Below are positions 2,632 through 10,086 of a stretch of 10,945 bases of DNA, one piece after another. The position numbers and the translations under genes are program-made. Source of the stretch: Octopus sinensis (taxonomy: Eukaryota); the NCBI RefSeq assembly GCF_006345805.1, contig NW_021827236.1:1-10945 (forward strand), written 5' to 3'. The notes beneath the pieces are model-generated. The model saw nothing but the letters and a program-made list of their open reading frames with translations, did not search any database and was not told the DNA's origin. The number at the start of each line of letters is the position of its first letter. The first letter of the stretch is position 1.

Positions 2632-2900
2632 ATGTAATCAAAAGGAATTTATATAATTAAAAGAGATTTTGTGGAAGGGAAGGAAGAGATGTCTGTAAAT
2701 TAAACATACCGTCAAGTTATCTGTCCGAAGAGACTTCTTCGCATTTCGCAAGCACATTCACATAAAGATGTCTACACACACCACACACACACACAAATAA
2801 AACGTGTGTGCGTGAGTGTCAATATATGTATGGGTGTGTAATAGTATATTTCAAAAGGTTACGGCTTTTGCAGGATTTCAAGTAGATAACAACATCCAGA

Positions 2901-2992
2901 ACACACATACACATATATATATTTATACACACATACATACATACATACATACATACATACTTACATATATATAATCCGCACACACACGTATA
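2901..2992. repeat. (TACA)n/(CA)/(TA) compound microsatellite
   Basis: Read directly from the sequence. Confidence 0.9.
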
Positions 2993-3052
2993 TAATCAAA
3001 TCTGTGTGTATGCATAATTCGATCGCTATTCAGAAGGTAATGAAACACAGAC

Positions 3053-3089
3053 GTGTGTGTGTGAGAGAGAGAGAGAGAGAGAAAAGAGA
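3053..3089. repeat. (TG)n(GA)n microsatellite
   Basis: Read directly from the sequence. Confidence 0.9.
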
Positions 3090-3233
3090 GGAGTAGGAGG
3101 AGATAATTTGCCAGTGCAGCTGATGATACCAAGTGTTTCCCCATTCTGGGTAGAACCAACATTATTACGTCTTTACATTCCTTCTGATGGTGGTGAGGGT
3201 AGCGGTGTTAGTCTTATTGTCGTTGATGTCGAA

Positions 3234-3272
3234 GTGTGTACACACACACACAAACACACGCATATACATACA

Positions 3273-3312
<40 letters not shown>

Positions 3313-3575
3313 GTGTGTGTGTGTGTGTGTACGTGTGTATGTATCTGTATATATATATATATAGACACATACTCTTCGAAAGTATTGACTAGCAATTCAC
3401 ATGACCAGCTGTAGGAAGAATGCCAAAATAGATATGTCTGTGCATATGTGTGTGTGTGTGTGTGTATACATGCATATATATATATATATATATATATATA
3501 GCTGTTTGTGTAAGGGTGTTTTTGGCTTGTATTTGTGTGTGTATATATACATGCCTATATACATACGTATGTATG
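3234..3575. repeat. Compound (CA)/(TA)/(TG) microsatellite cluster
   Basis: Read directly; interrupted by short unique stretches. Confidence 0.9.
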
Positions 3576-3656
3576 TCGCTGTGTGGTGTATGTGATTACT
3601 TTCGCTTTATTAATATATTTGCTTAAATGAATTTCACAACGCACCACCCTCTGTTA

Positions 3657-3688
3657 CTCTCTCTCTCTCTCTTTCCATTTACTCTCTG

Positions 3689-3724
<36 letters not shown>
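3657..3724. repeat. (CT)n and (CA)n microsatellites
   Basis: Read directly from the sequence. Confidence 0.9.
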
Positions 3725-3725
<1 letters not shown>

Positions 3726-4038
3726 AATCGCTGTGCCTGCGTGAGAGTGGAAGGACGAGGTGTAGTTGCAACCTGTGAAGCTAAGAATAGCAAATAAACA
3801 GCCTGCTGTGCAGATGCATGTGTGCGTACGTGCAGAGATAAACGTGTGTGCGTGCGCGCATGTGCGTGTGTGTAAATTTATGAAGATCTCCAAAGATATG
3901 CTTATGTGTATATCACTGTCCGTGTGAATGTGTCTGTGTGTATCGCCATAAATGCGTGTGAACGTAATGCTAAATATCTGCGGACGCATCAAACATTTTC
4001 GTAGAATACACAATTACACGTTAGCGGAAATTCATCTT

Positions 4039-4450
4039 TGTGTGTGTGTGTGTATATGTATGAGAGTGTGTGCGAGCTCGCATATATGTATATATGTTTG
4101 TTTGTACATACCTATATGATTATACTCACATATTTGTAGGTGTAACAATATGTTTGTGTGTGTATACATACATTTATATATACACATGTCCATGTATACA
4201 TATATAAGTATATATGTATGTATATACACACATATATTTACAGATGCCTAAGCATATATTTCTATTACATACAGATATATATATATATATATATATGAAT
4301 ATATATACGTACGTATGAATGTCTATGTATATTATAAATACATATTATTATATATATGTGTACGTAGGTGTACTTATCTTTGTGTGTGTGTGTGTATGTA
4401 TATACATATGTTTGTTTGTGTATACATACAAATCGAGCGTGCATGCGTAT
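4039..4450. repeat. Degenerate (TG)/(TA)/(CA) low-complexity tract
   Basis: Alternating purine-pyrimidine degenerate repeats. Confidence 0.85.
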
Positions 4451-4689
4451 GTGAGCATAGAGTAGCTGGTGAGGCGGAGCAGATCCCTAGATATATATTG
4501 ACATGCAGATTAGCTGCACCCATTGTTGCACCCGATTGTTGGTACATAGCATTTGGTGCCAGCTTTGAGCTGCAGCGGTAGCGTTTGTGGTGTGGTGTCG
4601 GTGGGTTTAATTCAACCCGAAAGACTCCAGGCTGGAGATGGAATTCTAGAAAAAAGTGTTGTTTGAATCTATTCAGGTTGGTGTAGGGA

Positions 4690-4960
4690 GTAGTGGCGGC
4701 GGCGGCGGTGGCGGTGTGGCTGTATTGGTGGTGGCGGGGGCGGGAGTTGCAGTGTTTATAGTGATATGTATTAGTATTTGTTTGTGTTTTGTGTGTAGTG
4801 GAGTATGGATAGAAAGAACGATGGGGAGGGAGGTGGGAGTGAGTTGTAATGAGTGAAAGGTGGGAAGGGGAGATAGGAAAATGCAAAAGAATTGTAAGAG
4901 AGGGAGAGTAATTTCTAGGGAGAAGGAGAGTGGAACAGAGAGGGAGAGATGAAGGAATAT
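4690..4960. repeat. (GGC/GGT)n and GA-rich low-complexity tract
   Basis: GGCGGCGGCGGCGGTGGCGG near 4695-4715, followed by purine-rich GGGA/GAGA runs. Confidence 0.75.
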
Positions 4961-5124
4961 AAGTTAGAATATGAGATGATAATCAAGAATTTAGTCTTTG
5001 TGTATGTGTCTCTGTATATATATAATCTTAAGCATTGAGGTTCCAATAATCTGGTGTAAAACTCTGAACGAAGCATTAATGTAGGTTCCGATGAAACTAT
5101 AAGGCTTTACTCAGGCACTTAATT

Positions 5125-5262
5125 TGAATTCACAGCATCCCGCAGCAGAAACAGTTGTAAGCCAATGAAGTTCATCCCCCCCCACATATATATATATATA
5201 CGTGGGGGGGGGTGAACTTCATTGGCATACAACTGTTTCTGCTGCGGGATGCTGTGAATTCA
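5125..5262. repeat. Near-perfect 138-bp palindrome (61-bp arms around a (TA)7 centre)
   Basis: 5125-5185 versus the reverse complement of 5202-5262 is 59/61 identical. The central (TA)7 at 5187-5200 is itself self-complementary. Confidence 0.97.
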
Positions 5263-5427: not shown

Positions 5428-5890
5428 GTCTCTGACCGGACGACGACTAGCTTTCTTTCTGCCCACAGCTTTCAACAAGCCAACATCGGCTTTCTTCTGT
5501 CTTCCGCAAGCCGATCTTCAGAATGCGTTCTAACGAATTTTTCCACTGTCTAGGCTTAAAAAGAGCCCTTATTGTTGGTTCCTTGTCCTGTTATTCTTTA
5601 CTTGTACTGTTTTTTTCTGACATATTTTATTTAATTCATTTTGTAGGAAGGATTGCTTCGGCCGGATCGTGTTCTGCCCTTACCTTCGAAACACGCATTG
5701 AGTCGAAACAGGGGCAGCTGATGAAGGGGAATTTTCCTTGTATTGTTTGTCTTCTACTTCGTTGTTAAAAAAAAGTCCGTTTCCTTGCTTGATTTTATGT
5801 TTTCGTTTCTCGTGTTCTACGTTTATTTGTGGTGTCTTGTACTCATATATGCATGTATATATGCATATGTTTTATTTATTAAATTGTTAT

Positions 5891-6203: not shown

Positions 6204-6908
6204 AATAGAGTATTGGAGAATTTTGGAATTTTTCCATGCAACACATGTAACTTTACAAATAGGTGTTACATAGGAACGCATATAGAAAAATGCACATACT
6301 ATTAGCAATAGCTCATATATTATTTGAATTCTCTATCTCTTGATTGCTAATCGGTTCCTTTTCTGTTGATCTACAAGCGAATTCACGGTAACACCTATTG
6401 GCAAGGAAACACGTGTAATATGGCATAAATGACAAAACTTTCCACTTTTCTGTTTTAATGTATAATTACACTACTATCAATACTTTCCAGTATTGATAGT
6501 ATTTTCATCAAATTTGATGTGTTTCGCACTTTTTGTCCCAGCGAAAGACTTGCACGTGTTGGAATCGCTACAGCTGGCGTGCAAGATGGCCTGACGCCTG
6601 CACCTATCAACTATCGTTCTTTCCGTGGATTCTTCACGAATCTTGTGTTTTCTATACGGATATATATATCTGTTTTCAACTCTCATAATATCTACGGATT
6701 TACTTTGGACAATTGGAATGTGCAGATGTGCTTCATGAAGACACATCTTGTATCATAACCCCCTGTACTTACTCCCTCGCCTGAGTGAACAAGAGAGACA
6801 GAGACAGGCAGAAACAAGGAAAATGCCACTTGTATTTGAACACTATACAAATATTCTTTAAAAATAACATTTCTTTTAATTTTTCTAAATTTAATTATTC
6901 ATTTGTTA

Positions 6909-6944
6909 CAGTTGAAAAAGTCTCAATGACTGAAACCGGTACTG
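6909..6944 (+). ncRNA. Minimal type I hammerhead ribozyme motif (U3-A8 core variant)
   Basis: CAG-UUGAAAA-AGUC[UCAAU]GACU-GAAA-CCGG-UA-CUG. Stem I is CAG/CUG, extendable by CAUUU 6900-6904 with AAAUG 6945-6949. Stem II is a perfect 4 bp, the GAAA box is intact, stem III is the palindrome ACCGGU and the cleavage triplet is GUA. The core changes C3>U and G8>A are mutually compensatory. Confidence 0.7.
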
Positions 6945-7050
6945 AAATGTTTTTTTATAAAATTATTTTAACATTTTCTATCGTGACTTTTTTTTCCATA
7001 TATATCAACTCGTGTGTTCCTTTTCTTCCTTATACACACACATATATATA

Positions 7051-7222
7051 TTCTTCTTGTACTTGTTTCAGCCATTTTGACTGCGGCCATGCTGGAGCGC
7101 CGCCTTAAAGGATTTTTAGTCGAGGCAATCGACCTCAGGACTTATTGTGTGTGAGCCTAGTAATCATTCTATCGGCTTTTTTGCCGAACTGTTAAGTTAC
7201 GGGGACTTATAAACACCAACAC
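7051..7222 (-). mobile_element. 5'-truncated SINE copy (3' half), related to the 8831-9218 SINE
   Basis: The reverse complement (GTGTTGGTGTTTATAAGTCCCCGTAACTTAACAGTTCGGCAAAAA...AAGGCGGCGCTCCAGCATGGCCGCAGTCAAAATGGCTGAAACAAGTA) aligns with 9050-9203 in this window. Confidence 0.9.
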
Positions 7223-7223
7223 T

Positions 7224-7277
7224 CACACAAACGCGCGCGCACACACACACGCACGCACACACACACACACACACACG

Positions 7278-7318
<41 letters not shown>
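7224..7318. repeat. (CG)(CA)n(TA)n compound microsatellite
   Basis: Read directly from the sequence. Confidence 0.95.
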
Positions 7319-7320
<2 letters not shown>

Positions 7321-8095
7321 CAGAGATAAATGAGAGCAAGGGAGATAATATTCTTAAGATTATAAACCTGGAAAATTACAGGACAACTTATTAGACTTGG
7401 AAAAGTTCAGGACAACTTATTAAATCTGGTAAAGTACAGATTTCAAATAAAATATTTAGATTTAGAAAATATTAGCTTTTATTCAAACTGGAAATTTTAT
7501 TGCAAGTTATTACTTCTGTTTGCTATTACTTAAAAATTAAAAATAACACAAAATATTTTGCACTTAGAAAAAAATAATTTTTTTGATTATCAATTAATAA
7601 TTAGAAATTTGAAAATAGGTTATAAAAAATAATAGTAGTACATAATTAATACAATAAATAGGATAATACAAAAATTAGTTATATATTACAGTAAAATCTA
7701 CCTCTAACAACAAATTCACATGAATATTTGCTTGAGTTACTTGACCCTATTTTTTCATAATGAATTTGCCTACCATATATACGATGCTACTTTGCATAAA
7801 ACTAGCTATATTGGTACTTCTGGTTCTCATTCTTTAAGTATTCTAGTGTATCAATATTTTAACAAAATTATGGTGCCTTTTTAAATGATATTGTTAGTTT
7901 TCAAATTAAAATCAAATAATTTTTGATATTCAAATCTTATCCTTAGCTGCCATATTTTAACTAGAAATTTTCTTGTTCTGTTCTTTACCAGATGTAATAA
8001 GTTGTCCTGCACTTTTCCAACTCTAATCACGTGACCTGTTGTTTTCAAGGTTCATAGTCTTAAGAATATTTTCTTGCTCACATTTTTTCATGCAA
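7318..8095. mobile_element. MITE or non-autonomous DNA transposon with ~120-bp TIRs containing 29-bp tandem units
   Basis: 7318-7440 is inverted relative to 7977-8095. The core 7391-7440 versus the reverse complement of 7977-8026 matches at 46/50, and the outer arms share GAGCAAG...AATATTCTTAAGA. The interior is AT-rich and non-coding. Confidence 0.8.
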
Positions 8096-8830: not shown

Positions 8831-9217
8831 AGGAGTGGCTGTGTGGTAAGTAGCTTGCTTACCAACCACGTGGTTCCGAGTTCAGTCCCACTGCGTGGCA
8901 CCTTGGGCAAGTGTATTCTGATATAGCCCCGGGCCGACCAATGCCTTGTGAGTGGATTTGGTAGACGGAAACTGAAAGAAGCCTGTCGTATATATGTATA
9001 TATATGTGTGTGTGTTTGTGTTTGTCCCTCTAGCATTGCTTGACAACCGATGCTGGTGTGTTTACGTCCCCGTCACTTAGCGGTTCGGCAAATAGAGACC
9101 GATAGAATAAGTACTGGGCTTACAAAGAATAAGTCCTGGGATCGATTTGCTCGACTAAAGGCGGTGCGGCAGCATGGCCGCAGTCAAATGACTGAAACAA
9201 GTAATAGTAATGTAAAG

Positions 9218-9697: not shown

Positions 9698-10086
9698 GGA
9701 GGCGCAATGGCCCAGTGGTTAGGGCAGCGGACTCGCGGTCATAGGATCGCGGTTTCGATTCCCAGACCGGGCGTTGTGAGTGTTTATTGAGCGAAACACC
9801 TAAAGCTCCACGAGGCTTCGGCAGGGGATGGTGGTGATCCCTGCTGTACTCTTTCACCACAACTTTCTCTCACTCATACCTCCTGTTTCTGTTGTACCTG
9901 TATTTCAAAGGGCCGGCCTTGTCACTCTCTGTGTCACGCTGAATATCCCCGAGAACTACGTTAAGGGTACACGTGTCTGTGGAGTGCTCAGCCACTTACA
10001 CGTTAATTTCACGAGCAGGCTGTTCCGTTGATTCGGACCAACCGGAACCCTCGTCGTCGTAACCGACGGAGTGCTTCCATCCAACC
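9698..10086 (+). mobile_element. Full-length tRNA-derived SINE (tRNA-Arg-like head; octopus OR-type by inference)
   Basis: A box TGGCCCAGTGG (9708-9718) and B box GTTTCGATTCC (9752-9762) have tRNA-like spacing. A ~310-bp tRNA-unrelated body and a CCATCCAACCA tail follow. The copy is flanked on both sides by (TA)n and retains CpGs, suggesting it is young. Confidence 0.9.

What the first reader, a model, noticed from the sequence alone, without database searches (positions are those of the whole stretch)
6900..6949. Stand-alone minimal hammerhead ribozyme with a compensatory U3-A8 core and a palindromic stem III
Seen in sequence: every element of a type I hammerhead is present in order in 36 nt. 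These are stem I (CAG 6909-6911 with CUG 6942-6944, plus CAUUU/AAAUG beyond a 4-nt bulge), core UUGAAAA, a perfect stem II AGUC/GACU, GAAA, stem III ACCGGU and a GUA site (predicted cut after A6941). The two departures from CUGANGA (C3>U, G8>A) are exactly the two bases that form the 3-8 tertiary Watson-Crick pair, so they covary, and a CUGANGA-only search would miss the motif. Established: minimal type I hammerheads with very short palindromic stem III occur in Penelope-like element pLTRs and retrozymes and can cleave as dimers. Inference: this marks a non-autonomous self-cleaving retroelement family or an exapted self-cleaving site; no RT or GIY-YIG remnant is visible nearby.
Basis: partly seen in the sequence, partly recalled or inferred. 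Interest (0 to 1): 0.75.

Follow-up and report, generated by a model that had tools for sequence, protein, structure and literature searches.

The report
Penelope retroelement end with minimal hammerhead
The motif is real, but it lies in a cut-off end piece of a Penelope-type jumping gene with thousands of copies in this genome; it is an already published variant of a small RNA predicted to cut itself only with a partner, this lone copy is likely inactive, and a few other copies begin exactly at the predicted cut, likely a trace of real cutting.

Summary
The motif is present as described at 6909-6944 and is not chance (0 of 7,540 shuffles). It is not stand-alone. Window 6783-7042 is a 5'-truncated 3' end (pseudo-LTR plus tail) of a Penelope-like retroelement. 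The exact 36-mer occurs 335 times and the family motif 3,135 times. Longer copies encode reverse transcriptase, a CX4CxxC linker and a GIY-YIG endonuclease, and some carry the hammerhead twice or three times about 4.4 kb apart. U3-A8 is the family's normal state, and the variant is in print (Schistosoma PLEs, PMC4209133). Selection on the fold shows between lineages: the outer stem II pair is A-U or G-C by subfamily, and sister families keep the core with a different stem I. Inserted copies decay neutrally, so exaptation is unsupported. The CAUUU/AAAUG extension depends on two changes private to this copy. Five to seven young loci start exactly at the predicted cut, against none at two control positions, a modest sign of cleavage in vivo. 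This scan has reported U3-A8 Penelope hammerheads and cut-site breaks before on other DNA. Verdict: new member of a known kind; this copy is probably inert; cleavage untested.

The parts
6783..7042 (+). 5'-truncated 3' end (pseudo-LTR plus tail) of a Penelope-like retroelement, older subfamily
   Evidence: 91-95% identity to 19 of 19 other fetched loci over about 6783-7051; 83% to both pLTRs of the long copy L088
6909..6944 (+). minimal type I hammerhead motif, U3-A8 core, GUA site; identical to the subfamily majority at all 36 positions
   Evidence: 335 exact copies in G000, 0 for the reversed control
6909..6911 (+). stem I, 5' strand (CAG), pairs with 6942-6944
   Evidence: sister families have a different, still paired stem I
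6912..6918 (+). core box UUGAAAA (U3, A8)
   Evidence: U-A at 3-8 in 85 of 89 aligned copies; 98 of the first 100 listed of 3,135 hits have U3 and all 100 have A8
6919..6931 (+). stem II, 4 bp, A10.1-U11.1 in this subfamily, G-C in the young subfamily
   Evidence: pair counts AU 40, GC 40, GU 2, unpaired 7 of 89
6932..6941 (+). GAAA box, palindrome ACCGGU (intermolecular stem III) and cleavage triplet GUA; predicted cut between 6941 and 6942
   Evidence: young copies that begin at the base matching 6942
7006..7036 (+). optional 3' 'tail' of about 30 nt; in tandem copies it runs on into the 5' UTR of the upstream ORF
   Evidence: of 58 aligned pieces 29 end at 7003-7005 and 26 at 7036-7051 (some loci fetched twice); continuation into the ORF in L088 and L008
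7037..7053 (.). short (AC)n/(AT)n tract at the 3' junction, the family's usual landing sequence

Best explanation
Window 6783-7042 is a 5'-truncated end piece (pseudo-LTR plus tail) of a Penelope-like retrotransposon, and the motif at 6909-6944 is that element's minimal U3-A8 hammerhead, predicted to cut slowly and only with a second copy or the element's protein, so this lone copy is likely inert. Shown: the repeat family, its RT and GIY-YIG reading frame, the tandem and inverted layouts, the two fixed 3' ends, and compensatory changes between lineages. Inferred from work on other Penelope elements: a tandem transcript carries two hammerheads; their ACCGGU palindromes pair to form a shared 6-bp stem III; cleavage after GUA leaves a free 5' end; the endonuclease nicks AT-rich DNA and the RT starts at either end of the tail and copies towards 5'. 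This copy arose when copying stopped after about 260 nt, through an uncut hammerhead. Most copies come from uncut RNA; a few tenths of a percent of young copies start at the cut site and likely record a cleaved template.
For: Repeat family: 1,331 candidates, 40 scored, 91-96% identical; 335 exact and 3,135 relaxed motif hits, controls 0. Coding region upstream in longer copies: GIY-YIG trace in L030 and L041; 11 of 114 protein matches have open frames of 780 aa or more; L088 protein hits RVT_1 (E 2.8e-8, above cut-off) and GIY-YIG (E 3.2e-4, just under cut-off); 1,763 homologues among 7,995 scored. Motif in 27 of 30 loci picked by protein alone; same-strand pairs or triplets 4.37-4.42 kb apart in L088, L090, L094, L095, 4 of 12 long loci. 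Inverted partner in 7 of 19 loci; 21 head-to-head pairs among the first 100 listed hits. Only 2 of 36 motif positions differ between subfamily majorities and they are the two sides of one pair, against 25 of 182 flank positions, 10 of them one indel block. Sister families 42-63% identical in protein keep UUGAAAA and GAAACCGGUA with a 7-bp AAGAAAU/AUUUCUU stem I. Dimer -17.3 kcal/mol against +1.5 for the closed monomer. Breaks at the cut site: 5 clean loci and 2 ambiguous, against 0 at each of two control positions. Literature: PMC4209133, PMC8557442, PMC11167929.
Against: No cleavage was measured. No Rfam hammerhead model scores it. Stem I has only 3 continuous pairs, there is no extra base between positions 9 and 10.1, and this subfamily lacks the conserved G10.1-C11.1 pair of the published consensus. 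Published minimal PLE hammerheads cut poorly even as dimers; the lizard one cut only with protein, was not needed for insertion in vitro, and no RNA reads ended at its cut site. Sister families were found with the motif itself, so core conservation across them is partly circular; two have a stem II of only 2 bp, and 3 of 3 loci of the UUGAUAA family showed no ORF homology. The break-point test has small numbers, two controls and covers only the young subfamily. Clade is assigned from motifs, not from a tree.
Confidence: 0.85

Rival explanations
1. The family's hammerhead is a vestige: it no longer cuts, and the sequence is kept for another reason such as a promoter element, a protein-binding fold or a splice acceptor.
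For: Weak stems and A10.1-U11.1; 2-bp stem II in sister families; nearly all copies derive from uncut RNA (3,135 intact motifs against 9 hits without A17); mutants of the lizard hammerhead still insert in vitro; a T-rich tract ending in TTACAG precedes the core, like the intron end at helix I in D. virilis Penelope.
Against: Both catalytic boxes, the 3-8 pair and the palindrome stay fixed while stem I changes completely and stays paired across families; compensatory pair in stem II; breaks at the exact cut site; the AG before the core is absent in sister families and no spliced joint was listed there.
Confidence: 0.2
2. The window copy is a non-autonomous retrozyme-like element of its own.
For: No coding remnant in the window; a separate 360-nt tandem hammerhead repeat exists in this genome; retrozymes are argued to derive from pLTRs.
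Against: 5' ends of 19 relatives vary continuously and run on into the 3' UTR and the ORF; there is no fixed monomer and no short tandem array at the window.
Confidence: 0.04
3. The window copy is an exapted self-cleaving site serving the host.
For: Its 36 nt match the subfamily majority while about 8 differences lie in the other roughly 185 nt.
Against: At 3-4% divergence about 1.3 changes are expected in 36 nt, so zero has a probability near 0.27; old copies mutate at 3.3% in the core and 3.6% in the flanks; there is no second hammerhead in the 10.9-kb window.
Confidence: 0.03
4. The motif is a decayed SINE tail or a chance match.
For: It shares ATGACTGAAAC and a small hairpin with the 3' ends of two SINE-like repeats in the window (local scores 27 and 23; SINE label recalled).
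Against: The match covers only 24-27 nt, against 260 nt at 91-95% to the Penelope family; chance 0 of 7,540.
Confidence: 0.01

Closest known systems
Minimal type I hammerheads in pLTRs of metazoan Penelope-like elements, including the U3-A8 variant of Schistosoma mansoni Cercyon (Cervera and de la Pena 2014, PMC4209133; results, discussion and part of methods read, supplement searched by term)
   Same: Type I topology, U3-A8 core, small palindromic helix III, U-rich 5' and AU-rich 3' flanks, mostly solo copies from truncated elements, pairs in tandem at element length and pairs on opposite strands
   Different: Stem II is 4 bp rather than 6-8; no extra base between 9 and 10.1; A10.1-U11.1 in this subfamily; cleavage triplet GUA; octopus not found in the searched supplement text (one file not searchable)
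Neptune/Nematis-type EN+ Penelope-like elements (Craig et al. 2021, PMC8557442; introduction and passages read)
   Same: [quoted passage not shown]
   Different: This family has a separate 411-aa upstream ORF overlapping the RT frame at a U UUU UUA site; the paper's legend says ORF1 can be separated by a frameshift but the text I saw does not say in which clade; Neptune versus Nematis not settled
PAc (Poseidon of Anolis carolinensis; Frangieh et al. 2024, PMC11167929; main text read)
   Same: Hammerhead in the pLTR; tail defined by two RT start sites; AT-rich targets
   Different: PAc has C3-G8, a single ORF starting inside the hammerhead and belongs to another clade; there cleavage needed protein and no RNA ends were seen at the site
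Animal non-LTR retrozymes (PMC7229834, passages; bioRxiv 10.64898/2026.07.22.740005, abstract, introduction and part of methods)
   Same: Type I hammerhead, likely Penelope-related
   Different: Retrozymes are short non-coding tandem monomers; this piece is collinear with the 3' UTR of a coding element

Membership tests
Minimal type I hammerhead of PLEs | Core boxes YUGANRA and GAAA with a Watson-Crick 3-8 pair and an NUH site | tested here: met
   U-A in 85 of 89 copies; C-G in other families of the genome
Minimal type I hammerhead of PLEs | Helices I and II supported by covariation | tested here: met
   A-U to G-C at 10.1-11.1 between subfamilies; different paired stem I in sister families; few independent events
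Minimal type I hammerhead of PLEs | Palindromic 15.2-16.2 region that allows a dimer | tested here: met
   ACCGGU; dimer -17.3 against +1.5 kcal/mol
Minimal type I hammerhead of PLEs | G10.1-C11.1 and an extra base between 9 and 10.1 (consensus traits, not obligatory) | tested here: not met
   window copy has A-U and no extra base; the young subfamily has G-C; consensus
Minimal type I hammerhead of PLEs | Self-cleavage | not testable with these tools
   only indirect: copies starting at the cut site
EN+ Penelope-like element | RT plus C-terminal GIY-YIG with CCHH finger | tested here: met
   (L088); absent from the truncated window copy
EN+ Penelope-like element | pLTRs in partial tandem and inverted arrangement, hammerhead in the pLTR | tested here: met
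EN+ Penelope-like element | 30-40 bp tail on one end only | tested here: met
   two 3' ends; in 8 of 8 loci with a direct and an inverted arm only one arm has the tail
Neptune/Nematis clade | CX2-5CxxC linker between RT and EN | tested here: met
   CGRPNCGIC in the L088 protein; definition
Neptune/Nematis clade | Placement in an RT tree with named reference elements | not tested
   no named references were at hand; homologues carry no clade names
Non-LTR retrozyme | Short non-coding monomer in tandem repeats | tested here: not met
   variable 5' ends running into a coding region

The most novel reading that the evidence does not exclude
This young Penelope family carries a genomic record that its U3-A8 hammerhead cuts in the living germline (insertions that start exactly after GUA), the host edits the catalytic adenosines of the same motif in RNA, and intact tandem copies with two hammerheads and an HIV-type -1 slippery site between two ORFs make it a ready system to settle what Penelope hammerheads are for.
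Probability: 0.45. Interest if true: 0.55.

Novelty: new member of a known kind. Interest (0 to 1): 0.27.

Why it matters
The locus itself is ordinary: one dead end piece among thousands. The family is useful because the role of Penelope hammerheads is still open: they cut poorly in vitro, were dispensable for insertion in the one reconstituted system, and are absent from Naiads. A young family with tandem hammerheads, natural A-U and G-C stem II variants, and copies that begin at the predicted cut gives a direct way to test cleavage in vivo. It also shows that Rfam models and CUGANGA-only searches miss thousands of motifs in this genome.

Tried and rejected
Rfam scans of the window and of 6800-7050 gave no hammerhead. 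A 27-nt microexon or an intron ending at TTACAG was considered from the sequence and dropped: the stretch is a repeat, the AG is not kept in sister families and no such joint was listed in contigs, which cannot prove absence. The run search listed no holder on record as RNA (15 of 20 guessed RNA). Three guessed-RNA runs gave no cover on the unique flank 6500-6690 while X17 did; this is not evidence on expression of this copy. A search for the A-to-G form in G000 gave 0 hits with 1 mismatch, and none of 75 classified copies had 4 or more A-to-G changes. No target-site duplication was evident by eye at 6783 and 7053. The region after the slippery site folds at only -3 kcal/mol. Lunse et al. (RNA Biol, hammerhead variants cleaving as dimers) is not held; I saw only its title in a reference list and a review's summary, so its variants may include this exact one. 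The Atlas could not read the upstream ORF. Paper searches: penelope-like + octopus + hammerhead gave 1 paper; octopus + penelope + neptune + transposable the same paper; hammerhead + A-to-I editing + ADAR + retrotransposon 1 unrelated paper; penelope + hammerhead + truncated + cleavage site + genomic copies 2 papers, seen as listings only. The library lacks most subscription journals and Repbase, where the family may be catalogued. In one search, 14 of 89 copies fell in neither subfamily class and were left out of the subfamily counts but kept in the pair counts.

Full report
Observation. A type I descriptor that allows either 3-8 pair finds only this site in the window, and 0 of 7,540 local dinucleotide shuffles give a hit with Watson-Crick stems, 4 of 7,524 with G-U pairs. 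The descriptor was written after seeing the motif, so the figure flatters it. Rfam gives no hammerhead and the monomer folds no better than shuffles.

It is a repeat. The 181 nt around the motif found 1,331 candidates in the own genome G000, of which 40 were scored, at 91-96% identity. The exact 36-mer occurs 335 times and a relaxed family pattern 3,135 times; reversed controls gave 0. The window copy spans 6783 to about 7042. Relatives share its 3' end, followed by (AT)n or (AC)n, but begin at many different 5' points. Seven of 19 relatives have an inverted partial copy upstream, and 21 head-to-head pairs lie among the first 100 listed hits. The host looks like an octopus from its SINE and microsatellite content; that label is recalled, and earlier notes use it too.

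It is the 3' repeat of a Penelope-like element. Walking 5' reached frames with RT motifs and a GIY-YIG trace. A protein search gave 114 matches, 11 with open frames of 780 aa or more. The protein of L088 hits RVT_1 above the cut-off and GIY-YIG just below it, has a CX4CxxC linker and the CxxC-H-H finger, and has 1,763 homologues among 7,995 scored. Of 30 loci picked by protein alone, 27 carry the hammerhead downstream, and 4 of 12 long loci carry it two or three times on one strand, 4.37-4.42 kb apart. Copies end at either of two points about 30 nt apart, and in 8 of 8 direct-plus-inverted loci only one arm has the extension. These are the pLTR, inverted copy, tail and Neptune/Nematis linker described in PMC8557442. 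The window holds no coding remnant because copying stopped after about 260 nt.

Is the fold under selection? Among inserted copies, no: in 40 old-subfamily copies the core changes at 3.3% and the flanks at 3.6%. Between lineages, yes. Old and young subfamilies differ at 2 of 36 motif positions, and these are the two sides of pair 10.1-11.1 (A-U in 40 copies, G-C in 40, of 89), against 25 of 182 flank positions, 10 of them one indel block. Sister families whose proteins are 42-63% identical keep UUGAAAA and GAAACCGGUA but use a 7-bp AAGAAAU/AUUUCUU stem I; a third uses UUGAUAA with a 5-bp stem I; C3-G8 families with paired stems also exist. These families were found with the motif, so only their stems and their position behind a homologous ORF are independent. 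U3-A8 is the family's normal state (85 of 89).

How it likely works. The palindrome cannot close in a monomer (+1.5 kcal/mol) but gives a 6-bp shared stem in a dimer (-17.3; young form -20.7). Cervera and de la Pena report the U3-A8 variant in about 1,300 Schistosoma motifs, no monomer activity and low dimer activity for a minimal motif. Frangieh et al. show that the lizard element's RT starts at two sites that define the tail, that its hammerhead cuts only with protein, that it is not needed for insertion in vitro, and that no reads ended at the cut. I infer the same cycle here. The window copy has no partner in its 10.9-kb contig, lacks G10.1-C11.1, and is 3-4% diverged, so it is likely inert.

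A test for cleavage in vivo. In the young subfamily, 9 hits lack A17 in front of the 3' fragment. One is a point insertion; the other 8 lie in 6 loci whose upstream sequence is not the hammerhead: four clean (L167, L171, L172, L175), one with filler at both arms (L173/174) and one fold-back whose break is uncertain by 1-2 nt (L169/170). The control one base upstream gave 5 hits: 4 point mutants and L180, whose A belongs to the joined ORF sequence, so it too breaks at the cut. The control 12 bases downstream gave 2 hits, both point mutants. So 5 clean and 2 ambiguous loci start at the cut against none at two controls; with equal rates, 5 of 5 at the named position has a probability of about 0.004. 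The numbers are small and only two controls were run, and these are a few tenths of a percent of copies, so most insertions come from uncut RNA.

RNA. Contigs of guessed-RNA runs cover the whole element in pieces, but none is on record as RNA. In run X7, 5 contigs continue past the first G of the core with 26 letters that match the young motif except for 9 A-to-G changes among 12 adenosines, including A6, A8, A9, A14 and A15.1. That form is absent from G000. It fits ADAR editing of fold-back transcripts from inverted copies, but it is one run, without DNA of the same animal, and earlier notes report edited copies fixed in DNA.

Verdict. This is a new member of a known kind, and the scan has reported U3-A8 Penelope hammerheads before on other DNA. 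What remains of interest is the family as a test case for hammerhead function. Supplement file 1 of PMC4209133, the bioRxiv supplements and the Lunse paper were not seen and may already list this motif.

Noticed in passing
L088:1483-2718 and 2655-5009 (G000:C3): A 411-aa upstream ORF without a Pfam family overlaps the RT frame by about 63 nt at an in-frame U UUU UUA site (2679-2685), kept in 25 of 27 listed contexts including an old-subfamily copy (some loci fetched twice); the RT frame is the -1 frame and its first Met lies behind a stretch that I recall as a conserved PLE N-terminal motif. No stable downstream fold. Candidate programmed -1 frameshift.
   Followed up: partly
L088:1331-1356, run X7: Five contigs show the hammerhead core with 9 A-to-G changes among 12 adenosines and no other change; absent from G000. 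Candidate ADAR hyper-editing of the ribozyme.
   Followed up: partly
L137, L143 and related loci: A separate non-coding family with a C3-G8 hammerhead in 360-nt tandem units plus an inverted arm: a retrozyme-like repeat, roughly 80 of the 100 listed hits.
   Followed up: partly
L101, L106, L108, L152, L153: Sister Penelope families whose hammerhead has a stem II of only 2 bp and lies about 150-170 nt behind the ORF.
   Followed up: partly
L086:1543; G000:C1:44606296 and 44718555: Copies with C3 and A8 (unpaired 3-8), one in a subfamily with a different 5' flank; possible intermediate between C-G and U-A cores.
   Followed up: no
window 5440-5870: Another high-copy repeat (2,505 candidates) with a CUGAUGA box and two GAAAC motifs upstream of it but no complete hammerhead by my descriptor; followed by (AT)n. 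Not resolved.
   Followed up: partly
window 5125-5262: Near-perfect palindrome of two 72-nt arms (96%) centred on (AT)n.
   Followed up: no
window 7343-8074: Inverted arms of 98 nt (86%) with 29-nt subterminal repeats around 536 AT-rich bases: MITE-like.
   Followed up: no
window 7054-7295 (-), 8832-9215 (+), 9698-10080 (+): SINE-like repeats (label recalled); the 3' ends of the first two resemble the stem II-GAAA half of the hammerhead over 24-27 nt, probably by chance.
   Followed up: partly
P0045, P0057, P0058, P0069, P0086, P0094, P0108: Homologues of this eukaryotic retroelement protein are labelled as bacterial symbiont proteins of bivalves, probably host DNA in those assemblies.
   Followed up: no
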